Source of the DNA: Eledone cirrhosa
Lineage: Eukaryota
NCBI GenBank assembly: GCA_964016885.1
Contig: OZ024747.1
Coordinates: forward strand, 65,658,001 to 65,722,000
Length of the DNA stretch: 64,000 nt
Reading direction: 5' to 3'
Part shown: piece by piece, positions 27,985 to 64,000 of the stretch
How positions within the stretch are numbered: position 1 is the stretch's first letter
How the letters are laid out: every line of letters starts with the position of its first letter
Made by a program: the position numbers and the translations under genes
The notes under the pieces: model-generated
The model's database searches: none
What the model saw: only the letters and a program-made list of their open reading frames with translations
What the model was told of the DNA's origin: nothing

Positions 27985-28425
27985 GTGAGATGCGCGATGC
28001 TGCATGGTAGTGAGACATGGACAGCAACTGCAGAGGGTATGCGATGGCTGGAGAGAAAGGAAGCAAGCACGCTCCGTTGGATGTGCAATGTCAATGTGCG
28101 GGAACGACCAAGCATAAACGAGTTGAGAGAGAAACTGTGTTTAAGAGGGATAAGTTGTGGTGTGCAAGAGAGGACTGAGATGGTATGGACATGTGATGCG
28201 CATGGAGGTTGAGCGCTGGGTAAAGAAGGGAGACGCAGTAGAGGAAGACCACGAAAAACATGGGTGGAGGTGGTGAGAGCCGACTTCAGATCGCTGAAAC
28301 TCACCAAGGAGATGACGAAGGACCGTGACAAGTGAAGAGATGCTTTGCTCAAGAGGACCTGTCCCACCCTTTCAAGCAGGGAAAAGCGGACGTAAAATGA
28401 TGAACAGACGATGATAATGATGCTC
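27985..28425 (+). mobile_element. RTE 3' end (LHGSETW...GRRSRGRPRKTW, ATG-repeat tail); recurs in each unit (e.g. 31690-32130)
   Basis: Protein motifs of the RTE ORF2 C-terminus; tail aaatgatgaacagacgatgataatgatg. Confidence 0.9.
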
Positions 28426-28486
28426 TCTATATATCTATCTCTCTATCAATCTATCCAGATATCTGTGCATCAGTCTATCTATTTAC

Positions 28487-28745
28487 CTGCACTTCTCACT
28501 CCGTCTCAGGATCACCGAGACATCACCAACAACCAACCCACGCTGTGGGAAACAGTCCTCCCCGGGGCACACCCTGGTACTTCACACCATCTGTCTGTCT
28601 CGCTGCCTAACTACCGAGAAATCCGGCTTCTGTGCTTGCCTAATTTGTAGGTTATTAGGCAGTTGGCAGGTTTGCGGAAGTTGGTTTTGCAAATGGTTAA
28701 AACACTTGCATCACGAAATTCAAATAGCATCACTCCTTGTTTTAT
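28487..28745 (-). mobile_element. Inverted, diverged copy of the RTE APE segment (left arm of the long inverted repeat); one per unit
   Basis: The reverse complement aligns to 29010-29271 at ~79% identity (hand alignment). Confidence 0.9.
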
Positions 28746-28746
28746 C

Positions 28747-28865
28747 TTTCTCGTCTTTACCTAGGCCTGCATAAGTTAGTGTTACGGTTAGTGTTACTGT
28801 TAGCGTTACGGCTAGTTTTAGGGTTAATTGAGAGCAAGAAACTGCTGCTAGGTAAAGACAAGAAA
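28747..28865. mobile_element. MITE-like element: 18-bp TIR around degenerate (GTTAGG)-like repeats; one per unit
   Basis: tttctcgtctttacctag ... ctaggtaaagacaagaaa (1 mismatch), with internal gttagtgttacggttagtgttactgttagcgttacgg. Confidence 0.6.
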
Positions 28866-28869
28866 TTCT

Positions 28870-29830
28870 GCATTTACAAGCAATTTTTACAAACAGCCAC
28901 AATGACAGGACGGAGACATCGTTATGCTAGCAGGGGATTTCAATGGTCATGTTGGACAGCTCTACGATGGTTACACTGAGGTACATGTTGGGCACACTTA
29001 CGGCTTAAGAAATGAAGCAGTGAAACTTCTTGAATTTTGCGATGCAATTGCACTAACCATCTACAACACTAACTTACACAAATCTGCCAACCACCTAATA
29101 ACCTACAAATCAGGCAAGCACATAAGCCAGATTGACTTCTTGCTAGTTAGGCAGCGGGACAGGCAGATGGTGTCAAATACAAAGGCATACCCCGGGGAAG
29201 AATGTACCCCACAGCATAGGTTAGTCGTTAGTGATATCTCATTAAGCAAGAGACTGAATGAGACATACAGGAAGGTGTGGAAAAAAGAAAGGTCTGGAAG
29301 CTAAAAGAGCTCTCACTAAAATACAAATTTAGGAAAGCCCTTCAATATGTGTATGATGAAAAAGAAGACGATTTAGAGTCGTACAACATAGATGATAACT
29401 GGAATTTCTTATGCGATACCTTACTGCAGGTTACTGATGAAACTTGTGGCTGGATCAGAGTTCCAACCAGACAGAGAGTGACATGGTGGTGGGACAGCAC
29501 GGTAGATCGGGCCATTGGAGACTAAAGACTAGCATGGAATGCTTGCAAAATTAGTGCGAGTAGAGAAGAATATACAGCCGCTAAGAGAGAAGCTAGACGT
29601 CAGGTGTACTTAGCATGCAAGGAGGCTGCTCGACGACGTGCGCTGTTCCGTACTGCAAGGCAGTGTGTCAGTGAAAATCGGGATTAAGTCTGTCCGCAAT
29701 GATGCCGCTGTACTTTGTGTCACGAATGAGTGTTGATGAGTAGAAAAGAGGACAAAACTCTATTCCGTCAGGGAAATGGCCATGTTCGATATGCAGAAAC
29801 GGAACTGGCATAAATTATATAAAACGTACA
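28870..29830 (+). mobile_element. RTE APE endonuclease plus linker fragment, fused to a post-RT Cys-rich piece; one per unit
   Basis: LAGDFNGHVG, SQIDFLLVR, CTPQHRLVVSD and TWWWDS; 29730-29830 encodes ...SGKWPCSICR; frameshifts and stops are present. Confidence 0.92.
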
Positions 29831-29982
29831 CAAAAGATCGAGTGCGATAGCAGGCACGTAGTGGGATAGCAGGCAAACTAACAGCATATTTTGATTATAA
29901 TAAAACAAATAATAATAGTAATAATAATAATAATAATCGTCATTGTTCTTTTCTTCTGTGCCTTTCTTTGCCTTCTCTGTCA

Positions 29983-30599
29983 TCTGAATAACAAAAATAA
30001 AAGAAAAAAAGAATCTTAAACATATGTTGCCTTTACAAAGTGCTGTGATCAAAGTAGCTTTTAAGCAATTTCCTAACTAACAAACAACATCAACAAAATA
30101 TATACAAATATCTTTGAATGTCAAGTCCACCAAGAGAAAATAGTCATAATGTACTTACAGATACAATGCTAGGGACTCGCATCAATGAGTTTTAGTAGAA
30201 AATGACTGACTGACTGTTGAGGGACAGAGGTGTGTTTTCAAATATTTATCAATTCACAACAAAGCCTCACAAAGCTACATCATAATGCAAACTCACAACA
30301 CCCTTCTTATGCAACCTCACCAAGCAACCCCACAACACAACCTCACGTTCACAATTCACAACACTCAACAAGGCATTCGTTATCTAGGGTTTACAGTAAA
30401 CATAGCGAGGTAAAACACACCCAGTACACTCTGTAAAGTGGTCATTAGGTTAAGATTAAACTGAAATCATACCTCCATTGTCGTTGGCGTATATTTTCTC
30501 TAAAACTTAATTTCATTGCTTTCATTTCTCTTCTTTTTCTTCTATTCCATCTAAATATGAAAAAAATTATACAGGTCATTTCGTCTTATCAAGAGGTCC

Positions 30600-30635
<36 letters not shown>

Positions 30636-30720
30636 GAGATAATACCTTAAAATAATGGTAAAAAAAGTGTTTAATTACGAAAATCCTTTGAAATAACTTC
30701 CTCGCTCTTACTGGTCATAC
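29983..30720 (-). other. Cluster of candidate non-coding exons (30646-30720, 30473-30550, 30159-30213, and one starting at 29983); one set per unit
   Basis: Acceptors: ctctaac...tgttttgtgttttgcag, tttttttcatatttag, cctctgtccctcaacag and tttttttcttttatttttgttattcag. Donors: AAG|GTATTA, GAG|GTATGA and TCT|GTAAGT. They alternate correctly, all on the minus strand. Confidence 0.5.
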
Positions 30721-30899
30721 CTGCAAAACACAAAACACTAGCGTTAGAGTGAACAGTGCAGTGCAGTGCAGTGCAGTGCAGTGTAGTGTAGTGTAATTTA
30801 GTATGGTGCAGTTTAGTGGCACAGTACACTGTAAAACATTTAGCCAATCTCTCAGACATTTACAAATCTTTCAAGATATATATATATATATATATATAT

Positions 30900-31405
30900 A
30901 TGGGAGAGAGAGAAATTACCCTCAGTAGATCAGACAGAGGGACCAGCTATTGAGATTAACGAATATAGGGTCCAAGAGGCGATTAAGGAAATGAAAAATG
31001 GTGAGGCTGCTGGACCATCGGAGATAGTTGCTGAGATGCTGAAGGCCTCAGGGGACGTAGGCACTAAACTGGTTGCACACATCATCAATCAGGCTATATA
31101 TGGCAGTGTCATACCCAAAGACTAGTGCAAAAGTAAAGGGGACGCTCTTGAGAGGAGAAATTATAGGGATATAAAACTGATGGATCAGGTTATGAAAGTG
31201 GCAGAAAGGATATTAGCACAACTAATTAGAGAAAGGGTCAAACTAGATGAGATGCAGTTTGGTTTTGTGCCTGGGAATAGTACAACAGATGCCCTCTTCT
31301 TGATGAGACAATTACAAGAGAGGTTCTTAGAGAAAAATAAGCCACTATACTTAGCCTTTGTTGACCTAGAGAAGGCCTTTGATAGGGTACGCCGATCTGT
31401 CATCT
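30900..31405 (+). mobile_element. RTE RT N-terminal fragment; one per unit
   Basis: GEAAGPSEIVAEMLKASG, MQFGFVPGNSTTDA and RQLQE...LYLAFVDLEKAFDRV; truncated before YADD. Confidence 0.93.
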
Positions 31406-31409
31406 TATT

Positions 31410-31565
31410 ATTTAACCTATAAATGGGGCCCCAACAGGTACTACTACACCAGGCCAGAGCAGACCTGGGAGTTATGACAACTAAGGGGGTAACTCCACGT
31501 TCCCCACAGTTCCTCCTGAACTTGAGCCTTGCCACTGGATGTAGTTTAATGTCATACCCAGGACA
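31410..31565 (-). mobile_element. Antisense insertion of an RTE-type 5'UTR fragment (same family as 22310-22462); one per unit
   Basis: Highly similar to 22310-22462 (ccagagcagacctgggagttatgacaactaagggg...ggatgtagtttaatgtcatacccaggaca). Confidence 0.8.
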
Positions 31566-31600
31566 AATATATACATACATATATATATATATATATACAT

Positions 31601-31643
<43 letters not shown>

Positions 31644-34303
31644 TACAAATATATATATGCGTACGAAAGTGTGGTTACATGATGCCTATGCGAGATGTGC
31701 GACCCTGCATGGTAGTGAGACATGGACAGCAACTGCAGAGGGTATGCGATGGCTGGAGAGAAAGGAAGCAAGCACGCTCCGTTGGATGTGCAATGTCAAT
31801 GTGCGGGAACGACCAAGCATAAACGAGTTGAGAGAGAAACTGTGTTTAAGAGGGATAAGTTGTGGTGTGCAAGAGAGGACTGAGATGGTATGGACATGTG
31901 ATGCGCATGGAGGTTGAGCGCTGGGTAAAGAAGGGAGACGCAGTAGAGGAAGACCACGAAAAACATGGGCGGAGGTGGTGAGAGCCGACTTCAGATCGCT
32001 GAAACTCACCAAGGAGATGACGAAGGACCGTGACAAGTGAAGAGATGCTTTGCTCAAGAGGACCTGTCCCACCCTTTCAAGCAGGGAAAAGCGGACGTAA
32101 AATGATGAACAGACGATGATAATGATGCTCTCTATATATCTATCTCTCTATCAATCTATCCAGATATCTGTGCATCAGTCTATCTATTTACCTGCACTTC
32201 TCACTCCGTCTCAGGATCACCGAGACATCACCAACAACCAACCCACGCTGTGGGAAACAGTCCTCCCCGGGGCACACCCTGGTACTTCACACCATCTGTC
32301 TGTCTCGCTGCCTAACTACCGAGAAATCCGGCTTCTGTGCTTGCCTAATTTGTAGGTTATTAGGCAGTTGGCAGGTTTGCGGAAGTTGGTTTTGCAAATG
32401 GTTAAAACACTTGCATCACGAAATTCAAATAGCATCACTCCTTGTTTTATCTTTCTCGTCTTTACCTAGGCCTGCATAAGTTAGTGTTACGGTTAGTGTT
32501 ACTGTTAGCGTTACGGCTAGTTTTAGGGTTAATTGAGAGCAAGAAACTGCTGCTAGGTAAAGACAAGAAATTCTGCATTTACAAGCAATTTTTACAAACA
32601 GCCACAATGACAGGACGGAGACATCGTTATGCTAGCAGGGGATTTCAATGGTCATGTTGGACAGCTCTACGATGGTTACACTGAGGTACATGTTGGGCAC
32701 ACTTACGGCTTAAGAAATGAAGCAGTGAAACTTCTTGAATTTTGCGATGCAATTGCACTAACCATCTACAACACTAACTTACACAAATCTGCCAACCACC
32801 TAATAACCTACAAATCAGGCAAGCACATAAGCCAGATTGACTTCTTGCTAGTTAGGCAGCGGGACAGGCAGATGGTGTCAAATACAAAGGCATACCCCGG
32901 GGAAGAATGTACCCCACAGCATAGGTTAGTCGTTAGTGATATCTCATTAAGCAAGAGACTGAATGAGACATACAGGAAGGTGTGGAAAAAAGAAAGGTCT
33001 GGAAGCTAAAAGAGCTCTCACTAAAATACAAATTTAGGAAAGCCCTTCAATATGTGTATGATGAAAAAGAAGACGATTTAGAGTCGTACAACATAGATGA
33101 TAACTGGAATTTCTTATGCGATACCTTACTGCAGGTTACTGATGAAACTTGTGGCTGGATCAGAGTTCCAACCAGACAGAGAGTGACATGGTGGTGGGAC
33201 AGCACGGTAGATCGGGCCATTGGAGACTAAAGACTAGCATGGAATGCTTGCAAAATTAGTGCGAGTAGAGAAGAATATACAGCCGCTAAGAGAGAAGCTA
33301 GACGTCAGGTGTACTTAGCATGCAAGGAGGCTGCTCGACGACGTGCGCTGTTCCGTACTGCAAGGCAGTGTGTCAGTGAAAATCGGGATTAAGTCTGTCC
33401 GCAATGATGCCGCTGTACTTTGTGTCACGAATGAGTGTTGATGAGTAGAAAAGAGGACAAAACTCTATTCCGTCAGGGAAATGGCCATGTTCGATATGCA
33501 GAAACGGAACTGGCATAAATTATATAAAACGTACACAAAAGATCGAGTGCGATAGCAGGCACGTAGTGGGATAGCAGGCAAACTAACAGCATATTTTGAT
33601 TATAATAAAACAAATAATAATAGTAATAATAATAATAATAATCGTCATTGTTCTTTTCTTCTGTGCCTTTCTTTGCCTTCTCTGTCATCTGAATAACAAA
33701 AATAAAAGAAAAAAAGAATCTTAAACATATGTTGCCTTTACAAAGTGCTGTGATCAAAGTAGCTTTTAAGCAATTTCCTAACTAACAAACAACATCAACA
33801 AAATATATACAAATATCTTTGAATGTCAAGTCCACCAAGAGAAAATAGTCATAATGTACTTACAGATACAATGCTAGGGACTCGCATCAATGAGTTTTAG
33901 TAGAAAATGACTGACTGACTGTTGAGGGACAGAGGTGTGTTTTCAAATATTTATCAATTCACAACAAAGCCTCACAAAGCTACATCATAATGCAAACTCA
34001 CAACACCCTTCTTATGCAACCTCACCAAGCAACCCCACAACACAACCTCACGTTCACAATTCACAACACTCAACAAGGCATTCGTTATCTAGGGTTTACA
34101 GTAAACATAGCGAGGTAAAACACACCCAGTACACTCTGTAAAGTGGTCATTAGGTTAAGATTAAACTGAAATCATACCTCCATTGTCGTTGGCGTATATT
34201 TTCTCTAAAACTTAATTTCATTGCTTTCATTTCTCTTCTTTTTCTTCTATTCCATCTAAATATGAAAAAAATTATACAGGTCATTTCGTCTTATCAAGAG
34301 GTC

Positions 34304-34342
<39 letters not shown>

Positions 34343-35304: not shown

Positions 35305-35347
<43 letters not shown>

Positions 35348-38007: not shown

Positions 38008-38046
<39 letters not shown>

Positions 38047-39008: not shown

Positions 39009-39049
<41 letters not shown>

Positions 39050-41709: not shown

Positions 41710-41747
<38 letters not shown>

Positions 41748-42709: not shown

Positions 42710-42748
<39 letters not shown>

Positions 42749-45409: not shown

Positions 45410-45446
<37 letters not shown>

Positions 45447-48400: not shown

Positions 48401-49105
48401 TTATAATAAAACAAATAATAATAGTAATAATAATAATAATAATCGTCATTGTTCTTTTCTTCTGTGCCTTTCTTTGCCTTCTCTGTCATCTGAATAACAA
48501 AAATAAAAGAAAAAAAGAATCTTAAACATATGTTGCCTTTACAAAGTGCTGTGATCAAAGTAGCTTTTAAGCAATTTCCTAACTAACAAACAACATCAAC
48601 AAAATATATACAAATATCTTTGAATGTCAAGTCCACCAAGAGAAAATAGTCATAATGTACTTACAGATACAATGCTAGGGACTCGCATCAATGAGTTTTA
48701 GTAGAAAATGACTGACTGACTGTTGAGGGACAGAGGTGTGTTTTCAAATATTTATCAATTCACAACAAAGCCTCACAAAGCTACATCATAATGCAAACTC
48801 ACAACACCCTTCTTATGCAACCTCACCAAGCAACCCCACAACACAACCTCACGTTCACAATTCACAACACTCAACAAGGCATTCGTTATCTAGGGTTTAC
48901 AGTAAACATAGCGAGGTAAAACACACCCAGTACACTCTGTAAAGTGGTCATTAGGTTAAGATTAAACTGAAATCATACCTCCATTGTCGTTGGCGTATAT
49001 TTTCTCTAAAACTTAATTTCATTGCTTTCATTTCTCTTCTTTTTCTTCTATTCCATCTAAATATGAAAAAAATTATACAGGTCATTTCGTCTTATCAAGA
49101 GGTCC

Positions 49106-49142
<37 letters not shown>

Positions 49143-50107
49143 GAGATAATACCTTAAAATAATGGTAAAAAAAGTGTTTAATTACGAAAATCCTTTGAAA
49201 TAACTTCCTCGCTCTTACTGGTCATACCTGCAAAACACAAAACACTAGCGTTAGAGTGAACAGTGCAGTGCAGTGCAGTGCAGTGCAGTGTAGTGTAGTG
49301 TAATTTAGTATGGTGCAGTTTAGTGGCACAGTACACTGTAAAACATTTAGCCAATCTCTCAGACATTTACAAATCTTTCAAGATATATATATATATATAT
49401 ATATATATGGGAGAGAGAGAAATTACCCTCAGTAGATCAGACAGAGGGACCAGCTATTGAGATTAACGAATATAGGGTCCAAGAGGCGATTAAGGAAATG
49501 AAAAATGGTGAGGCTGCTGGACCATCGGAGATAGTTGCTGAGATGCTGAAGGCCTCAGGGGACGTAGGCACTAAACTGGTTGCACACATCATCAATCAGG
49601 CTATATATGGCAGTGTCATACCCAAAGACTAGTGCAAAAGTAAAGGGGACGCTCTTGAGAGGAGAAATTATAGGGATATAAAACTGATGGATCAGGTTAT
49701 GAAAGTGGCAGAAAGGATATTAGCACAACTAATTAGAGAAAGGGTCAAACTAGATGAGATGCAGTTTGGTTTTGTGCCTGGGAATAGTACAACAGATGCC
49801 CTCTTCTTGATGAGACAATTACAAGAGAGGTTCTTAGAGAAAAATAAGCCACTATACTTAGCCTTTGTTGACCTAGAGAAGGCCTTTGATAGGGTACGCC
49901 GATCTGTCATCTTATTATTTAACCTATAAATGGGGCCCCAACAGGTACTACTACACCAGGCCAGAGCAGACCTGGGAGTTATGACAACTAAGGGGGTAAC
50001 TCCACGTTCCCCACAGTTCCTCCTGAACTTGAGCCTTGCCACTGGATGTAGTTTAATGTCATACCCAGGACAAATATATACATACATATATATATATATA
50101 TATACAT

Positions 50108-50148
<41 letters not shown>

Positions 50149-52809
50149 TACAAATATATATATGCGTACGAAAGTGTGGTTACATGATGCCTATGCGAGA
50201 TGTGCGACCCTGCATGGTAGTGAGACATGGACAGCAACTGCAGAGGGTATGCGATGGCTGGAGAGAAAGGAAGCAAGCACGCTCCGTTGGATGTGCAATG
50301 TCAATGTGCGGGAACGACCAAGCATAAACGAGTTGAGAGAGAAACTGTGTTTAAGAGGGATAAGTTGTGGTGTGCAAGAGAGGACTGAGATGGTATGGAC
50401 ATGTGATGCGCATGGAGGTTGAGCGCTGGGTAAAGAAGGGAGACGCAGTAGAGGAAGACCACGAAAAACATGGGCGGAGGTGGTGAGAGCCGACTTCAGA
50501 TCGCTGAAACTCACCAAGGAGATGACGAAGGACCGTGACAAGTGAAGAGATGCTTTGCTCAAGAGGACCTGTCCCACCCTTTCAAGCAGGGAAAAGCGGA
50601 CGTAAAATGATGAACAGACGATGATAATGATGCTCTCTATATATCTATCTCTCTATCAATCTATCCAGATATCTGTGCATCAGTCTATCTATTTACCTGC
50701 ACTTCTCACTCCGTCTCAGGATCACCGAGACATCACCAACAACCAACCCACGCTGTGGGAAACAGTCCTCCCCGGGGCACACCCTGGTACTTCACACCAT
50801 CTGTCTGTCTCGCTGCCTAACTACCGAGAAATCCGGCTTCTGTGCTTGCCTAATTTGTAGGTTATTAGGCAGTTGGCAGGTTTGCGGAAGTTGGTTTTGC
50901 AAATGGTTAAAACACTTGCATCACGAAATTCAAATAGCATCACTCCTTGTTTTATCTTTCTCGTCTTTACCTAGGCCTGCATAAGTTAGTGTTACGGTTA
51001 GTGTTACTGTTAGCGTTACGGCTAGTTTTAGGGTTAATTGAGAGCAAGAAACTGCTGCTAGGTAAAGACAAGAAATTCTGCATTTACAAGCAATTTTTAC
51101 AAACAGCCACAATGACAGGACGGAGACATCGTTATGCTAGCAGGGGATTTCAATGGTCATGTTGGACAGCTCTACGATGGTTACACTGAGGTACATGTTG
51201 GGCACACTTACGGCTTAAGAAATGAAGCAGTGAAACTTCTTGAATTTTGCGATGCAATTGCACTAACCATCTACAACACTAACTTACACAAATCTGCCAA
51301 CCACCTAATAACCTACAAATCAGGCAAGCACATAAGCCAGATTGACTTCTTGCTAGTTAGGCAGCGGGACAGGCAGATGGTGTCAAATACAAAGGCATAC
51401 CCCGGGGAAGAATGTACCCCACAGCATAGGTTAGTCGTTAGTGATATCTCATTAAGCAAGAGACTGAATGAGACATACAGGAAGGTGTGGAAAAAAGAAA
51501 GGTCTGGAAGCTAAAAGAGCTCTCACTAAAATACAAATTTAGGAAAGCCCTTCAATATGTGTATGATGAAAAAGAAGACGATTTAGAGTCGTACAACATA
51601 GATGATAACTGGAATTTCTTATGCGATACCTTACTGCAGGTTACTGATGAAACTTGTGGCTGGATCAGAGTTCCAACCAGACAGAGAGTGACATGGTGGT
51701 GGGACAGCACGGTAGATCGGGCCATTGGAGACTAAAGACTAGCATGGAATGCTTGCAAAATTAGTGCGAGTAGAGAAGAATATACAGCCGCTAAGAGAGA
51801 AGCTAGACGTCAGGTGTACTTAGCATGCAAGGAGGCTGCTCGACGACGTGCGCTGTTCCGTACTGCAAGGCAGTGTGTCAGTGAAAATCGGGATTAAGTC
51901 TGTCCGCAATGATGCCGCTGTACTTTGTGTCACGAATGAGTGTTGATGAGTAGAAAAGAGGACAAAACTCTATTCCGTCAGGGAAATGGCCATGTTCGAT
52001 ATGCAGAAACGGAACTGGCATAAATTATATAAAACGTACACAAAAGATCGAGTGCGATAGCAGGCACGTAGTGGGATAGCAGGCAAACTAACAGCATATT
52101 TTGATTATAATAAAACAAATAATAATAGTAATAATAATAATAATAATCGTCATTGTTCTTTTCTTCTGTGCCTTTCTTTGCCTTCTCTGTCATCTGAATA
52201 ACAAAAATAAAAGAAAAAAAGAATCTTAAACATATGTTGCCTTTACAAAGTGCTGTGATCAAAGTAGCTTTTAAGCAATTTCCTAACTAACAAACAACAT
52301 CAACAAAATATATACAAATATCTTTGAATGTCAAGTCCACCAAGAGAAAATAGTCATAATGTACTTACAGATACAATGCTAGGGACTCGCATCAATGAGT
52401 TTTAGTAGAAAATGACTGACTGACTGTTGAGGGACAGAGGTGTGTTTTCAAATATTTATCAATTCACAACAAAGCCTCACAAAGCTACATCATAATGCAA
52501 ACTCACAACACCCTTCTTATGCAACCTCACCAAGCAACCCCACAACACAACCTCACGTTCACAATTCACAACACTCAACAAGGCATTCGTTATCTAGGGT
52601 TTACAGTAAACATAGCGAGGTAAAACACACCCAGTACACTCTGTAAAGTGGTCATTAGGTTAAGATTAAACTGAAATCATACCTCCATTGTCGTTGGCGT
52701 ATATTTTCTCTAAAACTTAATTTCATTGCTTTCATTTCTCTTCTTTTTCTTCTATTCCATCTAAATATGAAAAAAATTATACAGGTCATTTCGTCTTATC
52801 AAGAGGTCC

Positions 52810-52846
<37 letters not shown>

Positions 52847-55800
52847 GAGATAATACCTTAAAATAATGGTAAAAAAAGTGTTTAATTACGAAAATCCTTT
52901 GAAATAACTTCCTCGCTCTTACTGGTCATACCTGCAAAACACAAAACACTAGCGTTAGAGTGAACAGTGCAGTGCAGTGCAGTGCAGTGCAGTGTAGTGT
53001 AGTGTAATTTAGTATGGTGCAGTTTAGTGGCACAGTACACTGTAAAACATTTAGCCAATCTCTCAGACATTTACAAATCTTTCAAGATATATATATATAT
53101 ATATATATATATGGGAGAGAGAGAAATTACCCTCAGTAGATCAGACAGAGGGACCAGCTATTGAGATTAACGAATATAGGGTCCAAGAGGCGATTAAGGA
53201 AATGAAAAATGGTGAGGCTGCTGGACCATCGGAGATAGTTGCTGAGATGCTGAAGGCCTCAGGGGACGTAGGCACTAAACTGGTTGCACACATCATCAAT
53301 CAGGCTATATATGGCAGTGTCATACCCAAAGACTAGTGCAAAAGTAAAGGGGACGCTCTTGAGAGGAGAAATTATAGGGATATAAAACTGATGGATCAGG
53401 TTATGAAAGTGGCAGAAAGGATATTAGCACAACTAATTAGAGAAAGGGTCAAACTAGATGAGATGCAGTTTGGTTTTGTGCCTGGGAATAGTACAACAGA
53501 TGCCCTCTTCTTGATGAGACAATTACAAGAGAGGTTCTTAGAGAAAAATAAGCCACTATACTTAGCCTTTGTTGACCTAGAGAAGGCCTTTGATAGGGTA
53601 CGCCGATCTGTCATCTTATTATTTAACCTATAAATGGGGCCCCAACAGGTACTACTACACCAGACCAGAGCAGACCTGGGAGTTATGACAACTAAGGGGG
53701 TAACTCCACGTTCCCCACAGTTCCTCCTGAACTTGAGCCTTGCCACTGGATGTAGTTTAATGTCATACCCAGGACAAATATATACATACATATATATATA
53801 TATATATACATACACACATATATATATATATATATATACATATATACAAATATATATATGCGTACGAAAGTGTGGTTACATGATGCCTATGCGAGATGTG
53901 CGACCCTGCATGGTAGTGAGACATGGACAGCAACTGCAGAGGGTATGCGATGGCTGGAGAGAAATGAAGCAAGCACGCTCCGTTGGATGTGCAATGTCAA
54001 TGTGCGGGAACGACCAAGCATAAACGAGTTGAGAGAGAAACTGTGTTTAAGAGGGATAAGTTGTGGTGTGCAAGAGAGGACTGAGATGGTATGGACATGT
54101 GATGCGCATGGAGGTTGAGCGCTGGGTAAAGAAGGGAGACGCAGTAGAGGAAGACCACGAAAAACATGGGTGGAGGTGGTGAGAGCCGACTTCAGATCGC
54201 TGAAACTCACCAAGGAGATGACGAAGGACCGTGACAAGTGAAGAGATGCTTTGCTCAAGAGGACCTGTCCCACCCTTTCAAGCAGGGAAAAGCGGACGTA
54301 AAATGATGAACAGACGATGATAATGATGCTCTCTATATATCTATCTCTCTATCAATCTATCCAGATATCTGTGCATCAGTCTATCTATTTACCTGCACTT
54401 CTCACTCCGTCTCAGGATCACCGAGACATCACCAACAACCAACCCACGCTGTGGGAAACAGTCCTCCCCGGGGCACACCCTGGTACTTCACACCATCTGT
54501 CTGTCTCGCTGCCTAACTACCGAGAAATCCGGCTTCTGTGCTTGCCTAATTTGTAGGTTATTAGGCAGTTGGCAGGTTTGCGGAAGTTGGTTTTGCAAAT
54601 GGTTAAAACACTTGCATCACGAAATTCAAATAGCATCACTCCTTGTTTTATCTTTCTCGTCTTTACCTAGGCCTGCATAAGTTAGTGTTACGGTTAGTGT
54701 TACTGTTAGCGTTACGGCTAGTTTTAGGGTTAATTGAGAGCAAGAAACTGCTGCTAGGTAAAGACAAGAAATTCTGCATTTACAAGCAATTTTTACAAAC
54801 AGCCACAATGACAGGACGGAGACATCGTTATGCTAGCAGGGGATTTCAATGGTCATGTTGGACAGCTCTACGATGGTTACACTGAGGTACATGTTGGGCA
54901 CACTTACGGCTTAAGAAATGAAGCAGTGAAACTTCTTGAATTTTGCGATGCAATTGCACTAACCATCTACAACACTAACTTACACAAATCTGCCAACCAC
55001 CTAATAACCTACAAATCAGGCAAGCACATAAGCCAGATTGACTTCTTGCTAGTTAGGCAGCGGGACAGGCAGATGGTGTCAAATACAAAGGCATACCCCG
55101 GGGAAGAATGTACCCCACAGCATAGGTTAGTCGTTAGTGATATCTCATTAAGCAAGAGACTGAATGAGACATACAGGAAGGTGTGGAAAAAAGAAAGGTC
55201 TGGAAGCTAAAAGAGCTCTCACTAAAATACAAATTTAGGAAAGCCCTTCAATATGTGTATGATGAAAAAGAAGACGATTTAGAGTCGTACAACATAGATG
55301 ATAACTGGAATTTCTTATGCGATACCTTACTGCAGGTTACTGATGAAACTTGTGGCTGGATCAGAGTTCCAACCAGACAGAGAGTGACATGGTGGTGGGA
55401 CAGCACGGTAGATCGGGCCATTGGAGACTAAAGACTAGCATGGAATGCTTGCAAAATTAGTGCGAGTAGAGAAGAATATACAGCCGCTAAGAGAGAAGCT
55501 AGACGTCAGGTGTACTTAGCATGCAAGGAGGCTGCTCGACGACGTGCGCTGTTCCGTACTGCAAGGCAGTGTGTCAGTGAAAATCGGGATTAAGTCTGTC
55601 CGCAATGATGCCGCTGTACTTTGTGTCACGAATGAGTGTTGATGAGTAGAAAAGAGGACAAAACTCTATTCCGTCAGGGAAATGGCCATGTTCGATATGC
55701 AGAAACGGAACTGGCATAAATTATATAAAACGTACACAAAAGATCGAGTGCGATAGCAGGCACGTAGTGGGATAGCAGGCAAACTAACAGCATATTTTGA

Positions 55801-56505
55801 TTATAATAAAACAAATAATAATAGTAATAATAATAATAATAATCGTCATTGTTCTTTTCTTCTGTGCCTTTCTTTGCCTTCTCTGTCATCTGAATAACAA
55901 AAATAAAAGAAAAAAAGAATCTTAAACATATGTTGCCTTTACAAAGTGCTGTGATCAAAGTAGCTTTTAAGCAATTTCCTAACTAACAAACAACATCAAC
56001 AAAATATATACAAATATCTTTGAATGTCAAGTCCACCAAGAGAAAATAGTCATAATGTACTTACAGATACAATGCTAGGGACTCGCATCAATGAGTTTTA
56101 GTAGAAAATGACTGACTGACTGTTGAGGGACAGAGGTGTGTTTTCAAATATTTATCAATTCACAACAAAGCCTCACAAAGCTACATCATAATGCAAACTC
56201 ACAACACCCTTCTTATGCAACCTCACCAAGCAACCCCACAACACAACCTCACGTTCACAATTCACAACACTCAACAAGGCATTCGTTATCTAGGGTTTAC
56301 AGTAAACATAGCGAGGTAAAACACACCCAGTACACTCTGTAAAGTGGTCATTAGGTTAAGATTAAACTGAAATCATACCTCCATTGTCGTTGGCGTATAT
56401 TTTCTCTAAAACTTAATTTCATTGCTTTCATTTCTCTTCTTTTTCTTCTATTCCATCTAAATATGAAAAAAATTATACAGGTCATTTCGTCTTATCAAGA
56501 GGTCC

Positions 56506-56542
<37 letters not shown>

Positions 56543-57507
56543 GAGATAATACCTTAAAATAATGGTAAAAAAAGTGTTTAATTACGAAAATCCTTTGAAA
56601 TAACTTCCTCGCTCTTACTGGTCATACCTGCAAAACACAAAACACTAGCGTTAGAGTGAACAGTGCAGTGCAGTGCAGTGCAGTGCAGTGTAGTGTAGTG
56701 TAATTTAGTATGGTGCAGTTTAGTGGCACAGTACACTGTAAAACATTTAGCCAATCTCTCAGACATTTACAAATCTTTCAAGATATATATATATATATAT
56801 ATATATATGGGAGAGAGAGAAATTACCCTCAGTAGATCAGACAGAGGGACCAGCTATTGAGATTAACGAATATAGGGTCCAAGAGGCGATTAAGGAAATG
56901 AAAAATGGTGAGGCTGCTGGACCATCGGAGATAGTTGCTGAGATGCTGAAGGCCTCAGGGGACGTAGGCACTAAACTGGTTGCACACATCATCAATCAGG
57001 CTATATATGGCAGTGTCATACCCAAAGACTAGTGCAAAAGTAAAGGGGACGCTCTTGAGAGGAGAAATTATAGGGATATAAAACTGATGGATCAGGTTAT
57101 GAAAGTGGCAGAAAGGATATTAGCACAACTAATTAGAGAAAGGGTCAAACTAGATGAGATGCAGTTTGGTTTTGTGCCTGGGAATAGTACAACAGATGCC
57201 CTCTTCTTGATGAGACAATTACAAGAGAGGTTCTTAGAGAAAAATAAGCCACTATACTTAGCCTTTGTTGACCTAGAGAAGGCCTTTGATAGGGTACGCC
57301 GATCTGTCATCTTATTATTTAACCTATAAATGGGGCCCCAACAGGTACTACTACACCAGGCCAGAGCAGACCTGGGAGTTATGACAACTAAGGGGGTAAC
57401 TCCACGTTCCCCACAGTTCCTCCTGAACTTGAGCCTTGCCACTGGATGTAGTTTAATGTCATACCCAGGACAAATATATACATACATATATATATATATA
57501 TATACAT

Positions 57508-57548
<41 letters not shown>

Positions 57549-60209
57549 TACAAATATATATATGCGTACGAAAGTGTGGTTACATGATGCCTATGCGAGA
57601 TGTGCGACCCTGCATGGTAGTGAGACATGGACAGCAACTGCAGAGGGTATGCGATGGCTGGAGAGAAAGGAAGCAAGCACGCTCCGTTGGATGTGCAATG
57701 TCAATGTGCGGGAACGACCAAGCATAAACGAGTTGAGAGAGAAACTGTGTTTAAGAGGGATAAGTTGTGGTGTGCAAGAGAGGACTGAGATGGTATGGAC
57801 ATGTGATGCGCATGGAGGTTGAGCGCTGGGTAAAGAAGGGAGACGCAGTAGAGGAAGACCACGAAAAACATGGGCGGAGGTGGTGAGAGCCGACTTCAGA
57901 TCGCTGAAACTCACCAAGGAGATGACGAAGGACCGTGACAAGTGAAGAGATGCTTTGCTCAAGAGGACCTGTCCCACCCTTTCAAGCAGGGAAAAGCGGA
58001 CGTAAAATGATGAACAGACGATGATAATGATGCTCTCTATATATCTATCTCTCTATCAATCTATCCAGATATCTGTGCATCAGTCTATCTATTTACCTGC
58101 ACTTCTCACTCCGTCTCAGGATCACCGAGACATCACCAACAACCAACCCACGCTGTGGGAAACAGTCCTCCCCGGGGCACACCCTGGTACTTCACACCAT
58201 CTGTCTGTCTCGCTGCCTAACTACCGAGAAATCCGGCTTCTGTGCTTGCCTAATTTGTAGGTTATTAGGCAGTTGGCAGGTTTGCGGAAGTTGGTTTTGC
58301 AAATGGTTAAAACACTTGCATCACGAAATTCAAATAGCATCACTCCTTGTTTTATCTTTCTCGTCTTTACCTAGGCCTGCATAAGTTAGTGTTACGGTTA
58401 GTGTTACTGTTAGCGTTACGGCTAGTTTTAGGGTTAATTGAGAGCAAGAAACTGCTGCTAGGTAAAGACAAGAAATTCTGCATTTACAAGCAATTTTTAC
58501 AAACAGCCACAATGACAGGACGGAGACATCGTTATGCTAGCAGGGGATTTCAATGGTCATGTTGGACAGCTCTACGATGGTTACACTGAGGTACATGTTG
58601 GGCACACTTACGGCTTAAGAAATGAAGCAGTGAAACTTCTTGAATTTTGCGATGCAATTGCACTAACCATCTACAACACTAACTTACACAAATCTGCCAA
58701 CCACCTAATAACCTACAAATCAGGCAAGCACATAAGCCAGATTGACTTCTTGCTAGTTAGGCAGCGGGACAGGCAGATGGTGTCAAATACAAAGGCATAC
58801 CCCGGGGAAGAATGTACCCCACAGCATAGGTTAGTCGTTAGTGATATCTCATTAAGCAAGAGACTGAATGAGACATACAGGAAGGTGTGGAAAAAAGAAA
58901 GGTCTGGAAGCTAAAAGAGCTCTCACTAAAATACAAATTTAGGAAAGCCCTTCAATATGTGTATGATGAAAAAGAAGACGATTTAGAGTCGTACAACATA
59001 GATGATAACTGGAATTTCTTATGCGATACCTTACTGCAGGTTACTGATGAAACTTGTGGCTGGATCAGAGTTCCAACCAGACAGAGAGTGACATGGTGGT
59101 GGGACAGCACGGTAGATCGGGCCATTGGAGACTAAAGACTAGCATGGAATGCTTGCAAAATTAGTGCGAGTAGAGAAGAATATACAGCCGCTAAGAGAGA
59201 AGCTAGACGTCAGGTGTACTTAGCATGCAAGGAGGCTGCTCGACGACGTGCGCTGTTCCGTACTGCAAGGCAGTGTGTCAGTGAAAATCGGGATTAAGTC
59301 TGTCCGCAATGATGCCGCTGTACTTTGTGTCACGAATGAGTGTTGATGAGTAGAAAAGAGGACAAAACTCTATTCCGTCAGGGAAATGGCCATGTTCGAT
59401 ATGCAGAAACGGAACTGGCATAAATTATATAAAACGTACACAAAAGATCGAGTGCGATAGCAGGCACGTAGTGGGATAGCAGGCAAACTAACAGCATATT
59501 TTGATTATAATAAAACAAATAATAATAGTAATAATAATAATAATAATCGTCATTGTTCTTTTCTTCTGTGCCTTTCTTTGCCTTCTCTGTCATCTGAATA
59601 ACAAAAATAAAAGAAAAAAAGAATCTTAAACATATGTTGCCTTTACAAAGTGCTGTGATCAAAGTAGCTTTTAAGCAATTTCCTAACTAACAAACAACAT
59701 CAACAAAATATATACAAATATCTTTGAATGTCAAGTCCACCAAGAGAAAATAGTCATAATGTACTTACAGATACAATGCTAGGGACTCGCATCAATGAGT
59801 TTTAGTAGAAAATGACTGACTGACTGTTGAGGGACAGAGGTGTGTTTTCAAATATTTATCAATTCACAACAAAGCCTCACAAAGCTACATCATAATGCAA
59901 ACTCACAACACCCTTCTTATGCAACCTCACCAAGCAACCCCACAACACAACCTCACGTTCACAATTCACAACACTCAACAAGGCATTCGTTATCTAGGGT
60001 TTACAGTAAACATAGCGAGGTAAAACACACCCAGTACACTCTGTAAAGTGGTCATTAGGTTAAGATTAAACTGAAATCATACCTCCATTGTCGTTGGCGT
60101 ATATTTTCTCTAAAACTTAATTTCATTGCTTTCATTTCTCTTCTTTTTCTTCTATTCCATCTAAATATGAAAAAAATTATACAGGTCATTTCGTCTTATC
60201 AAGAGGTCC

Positions 60210-60247
<38 letters not shown>

Positions 60248-63200
60248 GAGATAATACCTTAAAATAATGGTAAAAAAAGTGTTTAATTACGAAAATCCTT
60301 TGAAATAACTTCCTCGCTCTTACTGGTCATACCTGCAAAACACAAAACACTAGCGTTAGAGTGAACAGTGCAGTGCAGTGCAGTGCAGTGCAGTGTAGTG
60401 TAGTGTAATTTAGTATGGTGCAGTTTAGTGGCACAGTACACTGTAAAACATTTAGCCAATCTCTCAGACATTTACAAATCTTTCAAGATATATATATATA
60501 TATATATATATATATGGGAGAGAGAGAAATTACCCTCAGTAGATCAGACAGAGGGACCAGCTATTGAGATTAACGAATATAGGGTCCAAGAGGCGATTAA
60601 GGAAATGAAAAATGGTGAGGCTGCTGGACCATCGGAGATAGTTGCTGAGATGCTGAAGGCCTCAGGGGACGTAGGCACTAAACTGGTTGCACACATCATC
60701 AATCAGGCTATATATGGCAGTGTCATACCCAAAGACTAGTGCAAAAGTAAAGGGGACGCTCTTGAGAGGAGAAATTATAGGGATATAAAACTGATGGATC
60801 AGGTTATGAAAGTGGCAGAAAGGATATTAGCACAACTAATTAGAGAAAGGGTCAAACTAGATGAGATGCAGTTTGGTTTTGTGCCTGGGAATAGTACAAC
60901 AGATGCCCTCTTCTTGATGAGACAATTACAAGAGAGGTTCTTAGAGAAAAATAAGCCACTATACTTAGCCTTTGTTGACCTAGAGAAGGCCTTTGATAGG
61001 GTACGCCGATCTGTCATCTTATTATTTAACCTATAAATGGGGCCCCAACAGGTACTACTACACCAGGCCAGAGCAGACCTGGGAGTTATGACAACTAAGG
61101 GGGTAACTCCACGTTCCCCACAGTTCCTCCTGAACTTGAGCCTTGCCACTGGATGTAGTTTAATGTCATACCCAGGACAAATATATACATACATATATAT
61201 ATATATATATACATACACACATATATATATATATATATATACATATATACAAATATATATATGCGTACGAAAGTGTGGTTACATGATGCCTATGCGAGAT
61301 GTGCGACCCTGCATGGTAGTGAGACATGGACAGCAACTGCAGAGGGTATGCGATGGCTGGAGAGAAATGAAGCAAGCACGCTCCGTTGGATGTGCAATGT
61401 CAATGTGCGGGAACGACCAAGCATAAACGAGTTGAGAGAGAAACTGTGTTTAAGAGGGATAAGTTGTGGTGTGCAAGAGAGGACTGAGATGGTATGGACA
61501 TGTGATGCGCATGGAGGTTGAGCGCTGGGTAAAGAAGGGAGACGCAGTAGAGGAAGACCACGAAAAACATGGGCGGAGGTGGTGAGAGCCGACTTCAGAT
61601 CGCTGAAACTCACCAAGGAGATGACGAAGGACCGTGACAAGTGAAGAGATGCTTTGCTCAAGAGGACCTGTCCCACCCTTTCAAGCAGGGAAAAGCGGAC
61701 GTAAAATGATGAACAGACGATGATAATGATGCTCTCTATATATCTATCTCTCTATCAATCTATCCAGATATCTGTGCATCAGTCTATCTATTTACCTGCA
61801 CTTCTCACTCCGTCTCAGGATCACCGAGACATCACCAACAACCAACCCACGCTGTGGGAAACAGTCCTCCCCGGGGCACACCCTGGTACTTCACACCATC
61901 TGTCTGTCTCGCTGCCTAACTACCGAGAAATCCGGCTTCTGTGCTTGCCTAATTTGCAGGTTATTAGGCAGTTGGCAGGTTTGCGGAAGTTGGTTTTGCA
62001 AATGGTTAAAACACTTGCATCACGAAATTCAAATAGCATCACTCCTTGTTTTATCTTTCTCGTCTTTACCTAGGCCTGCATAAGTTAGTGTTACGGTTAG
62101 TGTTACTGTTAGCGTTACGGCTAGTTTTAGGGTTAATTGAGAGCAAGAAACTGCTGCTAGGTAAAGACAAGAAATTCTGCATTTACAAGCAATTTTTACA
62201 AACAGCCACAATGACAGGACGGAGACATCGTTATGCTAGCAGGGGATTTCAATGGTCATGTTGGACAGCTCTACGATGGTTACACTGAGGTACATGTTGG
62301 GCACACTTACGGCTTAAGAAATGAAGCAGTGAAACTTCTTGAATTTTGCGATGCAATTGCACTAACCATCTACAACACTAACTTACACAAATCTGCCAAC
62401 CACCTAATAACCTACAAATCAGGCAAGCACATAAGCCAGATTGACTTCTTGCTAGTTAGGCAGCGGGACAGGCAGATGGTGTCAAATACAAAGGCATACC
62501 CCGGGGAAGAATGTACCCCACAGCATAGGTTAGTCGTTAGTGATATCTCATTAAGCAAGAGACTGAATGAGACATACAGGAAGGTGTGGAAAAAAGAAAG
62601 GTCTGGAAGCTAAAAGAGCTCTCACTAAAATACAAATTTAGGAAAGCCCTTCAATATGTGTATGATGAAAAAGAAGACGATTTAGAGTCGTACAACATAG
62701 ATGATAACTGGAATTTCTTATGCGATACCTTACTGCAGGTTACTGATGAAACTTGTGGCTGGATCAGAGTTCCAACCAGACAGAGAGTGACATGGTGGTG
62801 GGACAGCACGGTAGATCGGGCCATTGGAGACTAAAGACTAGCATGGAATGCTTGCAAAATTAGTGCGAGTAGAGAAGAATATACAGCCGCTAAGAGAGAA
62901 GCTAGACGTCAGGTGTACTTAGCATGCAAGGAGGCTGCTCGACGACGTGCGCTGTTCCGTACTGCAAGGCAGTGTGTCAGTGAAAATCGGGATTAAGTCT
63001 GTCCGCAATGATGCCGCTGTACTTTGTGTCACGAATGAGTGTTGATGAGTAGAAAAGAGGACAAAACTCTATTCCGTCAGGGAAATGGCCATGTTCGATA
63101 TGCAGAAACGGAACTGGCATAAATTATATAAAACGTACACAAAAGATCGAGTGCGATAGCAGGCACGTAGTGGGATAGCAGGCAAACTAACAGCATATTT

Positions 63201-63907
63201 TGATTATAATAAAACAAATAATAATAGTAATAATAATAATAATAATCGTCATTGTTCTTTTCTTCTGTGCCTTTCTTTGCCTTCTCTGTCATCTGAATAA
63301 CAAAAATAAAAGAAAAAAAGAATCTTAAACATATGTTGCCTTTACAAAGTGCTGTGATCAAAGTAGCTTTTAAGCAATTTCCTAACTAACAAACAACATC
63401 AACAAAATATATACAAATATCTTTGAATGTCAAGTCCACCAAGAGAAAATAGTCATAATGTACTTACAGATACAATGCTAGGGACTCGCATCAATGAGTT
63501 TTAGTAGAAAATGACTGACTGACTGTTGAGGGACAGAGGTGTGTTTTCAAATATTTATCAATTCACAACAAAGCCTCACAAAGCTACATCATAATGCAAA
63601 CTCACAACACCCTTCTTATGCAACCTCACCAAGCAACCCCACAACACAACCTCACGTTCACAATTCACAACACTCAACAAGGCATTCGTTATCTAGGGTT
63701 TACAGTAAACATAGCGAGGTAAAACACACCCAGTACACTCTGTAAAGTGGTCATTAGGTTAAGATTAAACTGAAATCATACCTCCATTGTCGTTGGCGTA
63801 TATTTTCTCTAAAACTTAATTTCATTGCTTTCATTTCTCTTCTTTTTCTTCTATTCCATCTAAATATGAAAAAAATTATACAGGTCATTTCGTCTTATCA
63901 AGAGGTC

Positions 63908-63946
<39 letters not shown>

Positions 63947-64000
63947 GAGATAATACCTTAAAATAATGGTAAAAAAAGTGTTTAATTACGAAAATCCTTT

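What the first reader, a model, noticed from the sequence alone, without database searches (positions are those of the whole stretch)
27985..64000. Tandemly amplified, spliced, antisense hairpin-RNA cassette assembled from RTE retrotransposon parts
Seen: every 3.7-kb unit combines (a) sense RTE fragments, (b) a ~260-bp inverted RTE copy that folds best as minus-strand RNA, (c) four acceptors and four donors that alternate correctly, all on the minus strand, with no long spliced ORF, and (d) an antisense LINE 5'UTR upstream of the exons. Established: long inverted-repeat transcripts (Drosophila hpRNAs, mouse oocyte IR loci) yield endo-siRNAs, and long dsRNA is an ADAR substrate. Inference: a minus-strand non-coding transcript (per unit or read through the array) carries RTE-antisense sequence plus a long RTE hairpin and has been amplified at least 10-fold. 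It could be a host small-RNA locus against an abundant LINE family, or a dsRNA/editing-substrate array.
Basis: partly seen in the sequence, partly recalled or inferred. Interest (0 to 1): 0.85.

Follow-up and report, generated by a model that had tools for sequence, protein, structure and literature searches.

The report
Subtelomeric array carrying ADAR-edited LINE fossil
This 3.7-kb tandem array is a chromosome-end repeat shared by many chromosomes and is likely transcribed and spliced from a few copies, and one arm of its hairpin is a retrotransposon piece with clustered A-to-G changes, as are three other copies in the genome, which likely means RNA editing was copied back into inherited DNA.

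Summary
The array is real (3.70-kb unit, 99.7% identical) but not locus-specific: 168-177 copies lie in a duplicated block found at 27 or more places, many 40-66 kb from chromosome ends with fixed polarity. This window starts 680 bp from a telomere tract.

One public run (kind not on record, contigs only) behaves like RNA. It shows a GT-AG joint 30473>29983 on the minus strand; predicted exon 4 is skipped and none of the four predicted junctions is seen. Its alleles fit other paralogues, not this array.

The hairpin is two independent RTE insertions, 77% identical. Its better minus-strand fold comes mostly from arm A, which carries 18 A>G and 0 G>A changes, clustered, with ADAR-like neighbours. 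A genome-wide probe found three more independently A>G-hypermutated RTE copies (61, 118 and 44 A>G against 2, 2 and 8 T>C); the mirror probe found none.

Verdict: a subtelomeric macrosatellite whose hairpin is probably accidental. The result worth keeping is ADAR-type editing fixed in germline LINE copies, which my literature searches did not find described. Small-RNA function is untested.

The parts
27985..64000 (.). 3.70-kb tandem macrosatellite; continues beyond the window to about window coordinate 75600, ending in a divergent last unit without the exon segment
1..27984 (.). telomere-side flank of the duplicated subtelomeric block, 91-99% identical at other loci; a (CCCTAA)n tract ends 680 bp left of window base 1
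27987..28406 (+). RTE 3' end with (GAT)n tail (31660-32110 in the next unit)
28486..28745 (-). arm A: inverted RTE endonuclease fragment with 18 A>G changes of 86 A sites (15 of them in 28490-28580) and 0 G>A; ADAR-like context
28745..28866 (.). short element with a terminal inverted repeat and a GTTAGTGTTACG repeat in the hairpin loop; MITE-like (label is my inference from the sequence)
28862..29880 (+). RTE copy B: endonuclease, linker and C-terminal piece joined by an internal deletion at 29728/29729; arm B is 29007-29273 and shows no editing signature
28732..29983 (-). inferred terminal exon starting at acceptor 29983; array-type contigs at depth 333-377 down to at least 28732; 3' end unknown
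29984..30472 (-).
30473..30550 (-). 78-nt exon; donor used (array type), acceptor used (C28 paralogue type)
30646..30720 (-). predicted 75-nt exon; junction 30646>30550 not seen; the C28 paralogue uses a GT donor at the 30701 equivalent that this array lacks; deleted in C5, C6 and C19 units
30904..31404 (+). RTE reverse-transcriptase fragment
31405..31566 (-). 5' end (likely 5' UTR) of a second LINE family, pointing the same way as the spliced transcript; candidate promoter, untested

Best explanation
The array is a subtelomeric macrosatellite of retrotransposon debris plus an old spliced non-coding segment, likely spread between chromosome ends by ectopic exchange, and its hairpin likely arose by chance when an RTE fragment, likely hyper-edited by ADAR as RNA and then reverse-transcribed, came to lie head to head with an unedited RTE copy. 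Steps: (1) Shown: arm A carries a clustered, strand-specific A>G excess, as do three dispersed RTE copies. Inferred: ADAR edited RTE RNA and the RTE reverse transcriptase wrote inosines into germline DNA as G. (2) Shown: arms A and B are independent insertions, and 16 of the 18 A>G sites predate the split from the C28 paralogue. (3) Shown: unit and flanks are shared by many loci, with fixed polarity at chromosome ends. Inferred: unequal crossing-over and exchange between ends amplified whatever lay there. (4) Likely: a few paralogues are transcribed towards the telomere and spliced 30473>29983, giving a non-coding RNA whose last exon holds about 1 kb of antisense RTE and an imperfect hairpin. 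The promoter may be the LINE 5' UTR (untested). (5) Inferred: the hairpin is a by-product, not selected.
For: Context. Three separate RTE-containing tandem arrays in one block. Editing footprint: 18 A>G against 6.4 expected from transversions, P 1e-4; clustering 15/33 against 3/53, P 2e-5; 5' G in 0 of 17 edited and 17 of 60 unedited sites, P 0.017; 12 non-synonymous to 6 synonymous; 1 of the first 100 of 1981 degenerate hits has two or more G, and it is a block copy of arm A. Class: 3 of 3 A>G probe hits hypermutated, 0 of 1 T>C probe hit; pooled 5' G depletion P 2e-9, absent in 37 control copies; edit sites overlap only about as chance predicts. Setting the 18 sites back shrinks the minus-strand advantage from 73 to 17 kcal/mol. 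Hairpin not constrained: arm B lost in C28, C1:1.2 Mb and C3:361.6 Mb units; transversions in arm A not purged (15 of 244). Transcription: joint with CT..AC ends at two predicted sites, absent as joined DNA from the assembly (0 hits) and from 138 held records; 262 + 75 is about the 333-377 depth of the last exon; a second joint sits on a GT donor specific to C28.
Against: Arm A also shows C>T 8 against G>A 0 (P 0.008), which editing does not explain and which selection for a minus-strand duplex, or single-strand deamination, would. A residual 17 kcal/mol minus-strand advantage remains (about 1 SD of the null). Arm A is an internal fragment with no tail, so how it was inserted is unexplained. 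7 of the 18 A>G sites follow C, and some of these could be retained ancestral CpG. X2's kind is not on record, it is one run from one study, only contigs were laid, and both joints are flagged 'between: not known'. Family copies used to polarise were chosen by a motif matching arm B. Neutrality is argued from missing constraint, not from population data.
Confidence: 0.62

Rival explanations
1. One reading: expressed paralogues are a selected hairpin or antisense small-RNA source against the RTE family, and subtelomeric amplification raises its dose.
For: Spliced minus-strand RNA likely covers both arms and about 1 kb of antisense RTE. The minus duplex has WC+GU runs of 39 and 35 pairs, 232 of 264 paired. 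G:U bias 30 to 6, P 7e-5, including C>T 8 against G>A 0. The target family is abundant (1787 and 1981 motif hits). Telomere-associated repeats as piRNA sources in Drosophila (recalled).
Against: Longest pure Watson-Crick run is 17. Arm B is deleted in the deeper-covered C28 type and in several blocks, and 27 bp of it are lost in many arrays. The A>G excess is above the neutral rate, which purifying selection cannot produce. Expressed alleles are rare among units (29693C in 3 of 82 held matches), so most amplified copies add no visible RNA in X2.
Confidence: 0.15
2. The transcript acts at chromosome ends as a subTERRA-like RNA (telomere-directed subtelomeric lncRNA), and the array is kept for telomere chromatin or clustering; the hairpin is incidental.
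For: Fixed polarity at 10 contig ends, so minus-strand transcription points to the telomere. Such transcripts are described in yeasts and others (PMC7374410, passages).
Against: Several blocks have no array or a single unit (C1:438.0, C2:0.78, C2:412.3, C3:5.25 Mb). The array is 28 kb or more from the telomere tract. The same exons are expressed from the interstitial C28 megasatellite. No functional data.
Confidence: 0.1
3. The A>G cluster comes from a DNA-level process (deamination of single-stranded or hybrid DNA at the hairpin or an R-loop, possibly by ADAR on RNA:DNA hybrids), not from re-insertion of edited RNA.
For: Arm A has both A>G and C>T on one strand and lacks insertion hallmarks.
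Against: Neighbouring RTE pieces show no such skew. Dispersed copy L139 is a 5'-truncated insertion with an intact (GAT)n tail, 118 A>G and only 7 C>T. The three probe-found copies are edited on the RTE sense strand; the one antisense probe hit is not hypermutated.
Confidence: 0.08
4. Nothing is transcribed: X2 is low-coverage DNA, the joints come from processed or rearranged copies missing from the assembly, and the array is silent satellite.
For: X2 has no library record; depth 75 over the unique part would fit about 180 copies at 0.4x; no RNA holder was listed (which is no evidence either way).
Against: Array-type contigs are 4-5 times deeper in the last exon than in the intron; C28-type depth (about 490) is missing at intron position 30559 (total 159) although the C28 DNA matches there; two joints fall exactly on GT and AG.
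Confidence: 0.12

Closest known systems
APOBEC 'DNA-edited' LTR retrotransposons (Knisbacher and Levanon, PMC4866542; passages read)
   Same: Deaminase-hypermutated retroelements that integrated anyway; clustered, unidirectional, strand-biased changes with an enzyme context motif; ORF damage.
   Different: Here A>G on the sense strand (RNA-level, ADAR-like motif) in a non-LTR RTE of an invertebrate. That screen looked for G>A in LTR elements and treated 19 invertebrate genomes as an empty control; ADAR has 0 mentions in its main text. Its supplements were not read.
ADAR hyper-editing of repeat RNA (PMC4365171 passages; squid repeats, PMC9068888 passages)
   Same: Same cluster type and same neighbour rule (G depleted 5', enriched 3').
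   Different: Those are RNA-versus-DNA differences; here the G is in the assembled genome. [quoted passage not shown]
D4Z4 and other subtelomeric macrosatellites in segmental duplications (PMC7374410 passages)
   Same: Unit of 3-4 kb, subtelomeric, variable copy number, exchanged between chromosome ends, transcribed.
   Different: No DUX4-like ORF; spread over 27 or more loci, not two; unit made of RTE debris.
Drosophila hpRNA / endo-siRNA loci (recalled, no paper read)
   Same: Long imperfect inverted repeat with many G:U pairs in a spliced non-coding transcript; some are tandemly repeated.
   Different: Arms here are two independent TE insertions, 77% identical, and one is dispensable among paralogues; no small-RNA evidence.
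Octopus RTE LINEs and TE-containing lncRNAs (PMC9115989 and PMC13282606 passages)
   Same: Abundant, recently active RTE family; TE fragments in lncRNAs.
   Different: The passages seen mention neither genomic A>G-edited copies nor subtelomeric arrays. That this genome is an octopod is my recalled impression, not tested.

Membership tests
subtelomeric macrosatellite in a segmental duplication | multi-kb head-to-tail unit with high identity | tested here: met
subtelomeric macrosatellite in a segmental duplication | close to telomeric repeats, shared flanks and polarity across chromosome ends | tested here: met
   telomere tracts seen at C9 start, C6 end and beside the C7 gap; 8 array starts 45-66 kb from contig ends; interstitial blocks other than C7 not checked for a telomere tract
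subtelomeric macrosatellite in a segmental duplication | copy number varies between loci and individuals | tested here: inconclusive
   0 to 12 or more units per locus in this assembly; individuals not compared
deaminase-edited retroelement, ADAR type | cluster of one substitution type, polarised against the family majority | tested here: met
deaminase-edited retroelement, ADAR type | strand bias (A>G on sense, not T>C) | tested here: met
   18/3, 61/2, 118/2, 44/8; mirror probe hit 6/6; one motif only
deaminase-edited retroelement, ADAR type | G depleted 5' and enriched 3' of edited A | tested here: met
   pooled P 2e-9 and 0.005; arm A alone P 0.017 (5') and not significant (3')
deaminase-edited retroelement, ADAR type | absent from DNA transposons | not tested
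   genome not available as a file
deaminase-edited retroelement, ADAR type | insertion hallmarks of target-primed reverse transcription | tested here: inconclusive
   L139 has 5' truncation and tail, no clear target-site duplication seen; arm A has no tail
hpRNA / endo-siRNA locus | transcribed long inverted repeat that folds on the transcribed strand | tested here: inconclusive
   fold predicted; coverage in one run of unrecorded kind, contigs only
hpRNA / endo-siRNA locus | phased 21-22-nt Dicer products loaded on Argonaute | not testable with these tools
   no small-RNA run listed
hpRNA / endo-siRNA locus | duplex maintained among expressed paralogues | tested here: not met
   arm B deleted in the C28 type and others; transversions not purged
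piRNA cluster | 25-31-nt 1U RNAs from one strand, TE fragments mostly antisense | not testable with these tools
   orientation fits (most RTE pieces antisense to the transcript) but there is no small-RNA data
Helitron or other mobile tandem element | unit inserted in unrelated flanks with defined termini | tested here: not met
   flanks shared at every fetched array locus

The most novel reading that the evidence does not exclude
ADAR acts as a heritable mutagen of LINEs in this lineage, an RNA-level mirror of APOBEC restriction: edited RTE transcripts are re-inserted as dead copies. One such edited arm was captured in a subtelomeric, spliced antisense-and-hairpin RNA, where its A>G changes still pair as G:U on the transcribed strand, and was amplified across chromosome ends as a source of dsRNA that feeds further editing or silencing of the RTE family. 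The first sentence alone has a probability near 0.85; the figure given is for the whole loop.
Probability: 0.1. Interest if true: 0.88.

Novelty: new variant of a known kind. Interest (0 to 1): 0.58.

Why it matters
The array itself is an ordinary kind of object. The editing footprint is not: four independent genomic LINE copies, with up to about 40% of adenosines in a stretch changed in an ADAR-like pattern, indicate that A-to-I editing reaches inherited DNA through retrotransposition. If general, this makes an open question (does ADAR restrict retrotransposons by mutating them?) testable from assemblies alone. It would also give a dated fossil record of germline ADAR activity in an animal group likely known for heavy editing, and it warns that G:U-rich 'good' hairpins in TE-rich genomes can be editing fossils and not signs of selection. 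The block also describes subtelomere structure in this genome and marks a telomere scaffolded inside C7.

Tried and rejected
No RNA holder listed for 29700-30830; no evidence either way. X1 (guessed RNA, share 0.05) gave only low-complexity pieces and one 179-nt RTE match; X6 and X7 gave unspliced pieces at depth 2-4; not used as evidence. Generic splice weight matrix: uninformative. Protein-coding reading of the exons: no Pfam hit for three exon-region frames, longest ATG ORF 79 aa; rejected. Helitron or mobile unit: rejected, flanks shared. Local inverted duplication or twin priming for the hairpin: rejected, 1 of 9 derived changes shared and only one arm edited. Reverse transcription of the whole local hairpin: rejected, arm B has 2 T>C of 54. 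Arm A as a separate subfamily: unlikely, changes mostly non-synonymous and no dispersed match among the first 100 hits. C28 array as rDNA or histone cluster: rejected; Rfam gave only one marginal Histone3 hit (36.6 bits, cut-off 34) and no histone ORF was seen. One search was a badly chosen probe (699 dispersed RTE hits). The 'opposite-strand RTE' lines are contaminated by one mis-oriented family locus (L119) and were ignored. L086, L092 and L119 were left out of the 37-copy background because other repeats in them align spuriously; L093, L109, L114 and L119 were left out of the duplex null. The bacterial promoter scan is irrelevant here. Flanks of dispersed copies of the 31405-31566 element could not be obtained, so its identity rests on two held contexts. 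Earlier scan findings: none. Literature searches showed no title or abstract describing ADAR-edited LINE copies fixed in a genome, and none on this array; the library lacks most subscription papers (Carmi et al. 2011 was seen only as a citation), so absence from print is not established.
Full report
Observation. The array is as described: ten unit starts 3696-3705 bp apart, 99.6-99.8% identical, twelve marker copies at the locus, then a divergent last unit in which the RTE runs on unbroken and the exon segment is missing. The unit is a mosaic: RTE 3' end, inverted endonuclease fragment (arm A), a short inverted-repeat element, RTE copy B with an internal deletion, about 1 kb of non-RTE sequence with the splice-like sites, an RT fragment and a 162-bp repeat. 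The arms are 77% identical. All eight GT/AG sites are at the stated coordinates.

Context. An exon-3 motif has 168 exact copies in the genome and an exon-4 motif 177 with up to three mismatches. At every array locus fetched, the flanks match the window's flank at 91-99%, so the unit is not a mobile element: it is part of a duplicated block. A flank marker occurs at 27 places at 98% or more among the 40 candidates scored of 1610. Eight array starts lie 45-66 kb from contig ends, all in the same polarity, two more ends appear, and C9 and C6 end in telomeric repeats. The window itself follows a 200-N gap and a 12.8-kb (CCCTAA)n tract that ends 680 bp before base 1. The block holds two other tandem arrays with RTE pieces (about 4.4 kb and 3.57 kb), and some blocks carry the hairpin but no array. 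Tandem amplification is therefore the local norm, which removes amplification as an argument for function. Exchange between ends is inferred from the general behaviour of subtelomeres (PMC7374410, passages).

Transcription. No run on record as RNA holds the stretch. I laid four runs, contigs only. X2 (kind unknown, 88 million letters) shows a joint 29983 to 30473 with CT..AC ends at depth 262, that is a minus-strand intron from the predicted donor 30473 to the predicted acceptor 29983. The joined form is not in the assembly (0 exact hits) nor in 138 held records. Contigs of array type are 333-377 deep between 28732 and 29736 and 75 deep in the intron, matching 262 + 75. A loose end at 28486 led to a second family: a megasatellite of about 36-45 kb on C28, with 63 exact motif hits including C18 and unplaced contigs, holding 79-89% paralogues of arm A, part of B and the exon region. 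It explains the deep variants and the 28962-29255 joint in X2, and it has a GT donor exactly where X2's second joint (30550 to 30701, depth 490) lands, while its intron is not covered at that depth. I take X2 to be RNA (about 85%; inference). The array-type contigs carry 28977C and 29693C, found in 7 of 54 and 3 of 82 held matches (C14:1.23 Mb, first C8 unit) and in none of the ten window units. So the family is likely transcribed and spliced, from a few paralogues; this array is not shown to be expressed. The 162-bp repeat looks like the 5' end of a second LINE pointing the same way as the transcript and is a candidate promoter, untested.

The hairpin. The minus strand folds better (-409.8 against -345.7 kcal/mol) because transitions between the arms favour minus-strand G:U by 30 to 6. 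Against the majority of 39 dispersed family copies, arm B has 9 changes in 256 sites with no skew; arm A has 44 in 244, of which 18 are A>G, 8 C>T, 3 T>C and 0 G>A. Family copies show 0-4 A>G in the same stretch. The excess is significant when scaled on transversions (6.4 expected, P 1e-4), clustered (15 of 33 against 3 of 53), never 3' of a G (0 of 17 against 17 of 60) and mostly non-synonymous. G depletion upstream is the published ADAR preference (PMC4365171, passages). Sixteen of the 18 sites are shared with the C28 paralogue, so the event is older than that split. The arms share 1 of 9 derived changes. Setting the 18 sites back cuts the strand advantage from 73 to 17 kcal/mol. Arm B is missing or cut in many paralogues. 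Against this reading: C>T 8 versus G>A 0 (P 0.008) is unexplained, and arm A has no tail.

A class, not one case. A 30-nt RT probe requiring at least two of three A>G changes gave 3 hits; the mirror T>C probe gave 1. All three are hypermutated: L138 61 A>G and 2 T>C in 2558 sites, L139 118 and 2 in 1065, L140 44 and 8 in 1798; the mirror hit has 6 and 6. Pooled with arm A, editing is 6% after G and 12-19% after other bases (P 2e-9), a pattern absent from 37 control copies. Their edited sites overlap about as chance predicts (21 vs 15, 3 vs 4.5, 8 vs 5.5), so they are separate events. L139 is 5'-truncated with an intact tail. Such copies are rare: 1 of the first 100 of 1981 hits of an endonuclease motif has two or more G, and it is arm A. 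The simplest mechanism is ADAR editing of RTE RNA followed by reverse transcription into the germline; the enzyme and the route are inferred.

Comparison and novelty. The array works like D4Z4-type subtelomeric macrosatellites and is a new member of that kind, without an ORF. It fails one hpRNA feature that I could test (duplex kept among expressed paralogues); the defining small RNAs could not be tested. The edited copies mirror APOBEC-edited LTR elements (PMC4866542, passages; supplements not read, and its note on invertebrates may bear on this). Squid repeats are edited as RNA and a defence role is called unexplored (PMC9068888, passages); a review calls suppression by mutation undetermined (PMC4982230, passage). 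PMC2873906, PMC13282606 and PMC9115989 were read as passages; other papers were seen as listings only. Eight searches on editing showed no description of genomic ADAR-edited LINE copies, within a library that lacks most subscription journals. That the animal is an octopod is a recalled impression, not tested.

Verdict. Observation partly confirmed; interpretation partly supported. Best reading: subtelomeric macrosatellite, family likely transcribed, hairpin accidental and built on an editing fossil (0.62). Selected small-RNA source 0.15; silent DNA 0.12; telomere RNA 0.10; DNA-level deamination 0.08 (these are not all exclusive). Interest 0.58, carried by the editing footprint.

Noticed in passing
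L138 (G000:C4:327.57 Mb), L139 (C5:28.81 Mb), L140 (C7:27.06 Mb): Three dispersed RTE copies with 61, 118 and 44 A>G changes and ADAR-like context; independent events.
   Followed up: yes
G000:C7:65644305-65657320 (just left of the window): 200-N gap followed directly by a 12.8-kb (CCCTAA)n tract inside a 94-Mb scaffold: a chromosome end scaffolded internally, or a fusion relic.
   Followed up: partly
G000:C28:124.7-126.4 Mb (L124-L135), also C18:6.7 Mb and unplaced contigs: Megasatellite of about 36-45 kb per unit with nested GC-rich and other repeats, degenerate telomere repeats, an 857-aa LINE-like frame and paralogues of the array's arm A and exons; likely spliced in X2. Not rDNA, no histone ORFs seen.
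   Followed up: partly
window 2600-7010 and window coordinates 83700-101700 (L023, L060): Two further RTE-containing tandem arrays (about 4.4 kb, single here but repeated at C6 and C9 ends; 3.57 kb) in the same block.
   Followed up: partly
window 46516-61319: Units alternate 3704/3696 bp with a matching G/T variant at the 28059 equivalent: an incipient dimeric higher-order repeat.
   Followed up: no
L034-L037, L080 (C5, C6, C19): Shorter 3.35-kb unit lacking 30608-30948, so without predicted exon 2.
   Followed up: partly
L025 and L075: The alleles that mark the likely expressed units (28762, 28977, 29693) are all T>C on the plus strand, that is A>G on the transcribed strand; they exist in genomic copies, so editing is not needed to explain them.
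   Followed up: no
run X6: A 567-nt contig from a run labelled as another organism carries the indels of the C14:1.23 Mb haplotype with no substitutions, at depth 2; not interpreted.
   Followed up: no
37 dispersed RTE copies (L081-L120): Slight overall excess of A>G over T>C (1.27% against 1.06%, P 0.03) without ADAR context; could be low-level editing or composition.
   Followed up: partly
G000:C2:412.33-412.38 Mb, C21:13.8 and 14.0 Mb, C11:32.7-35.2 Mb, C14:1.2 Mb, C1:1.2 Mb: Blocks that lie inside scaffolds, some as opposed pairs or pointing away from the nearest end; may be mis-oriented contigs or old fusion points.
   Followed up: no
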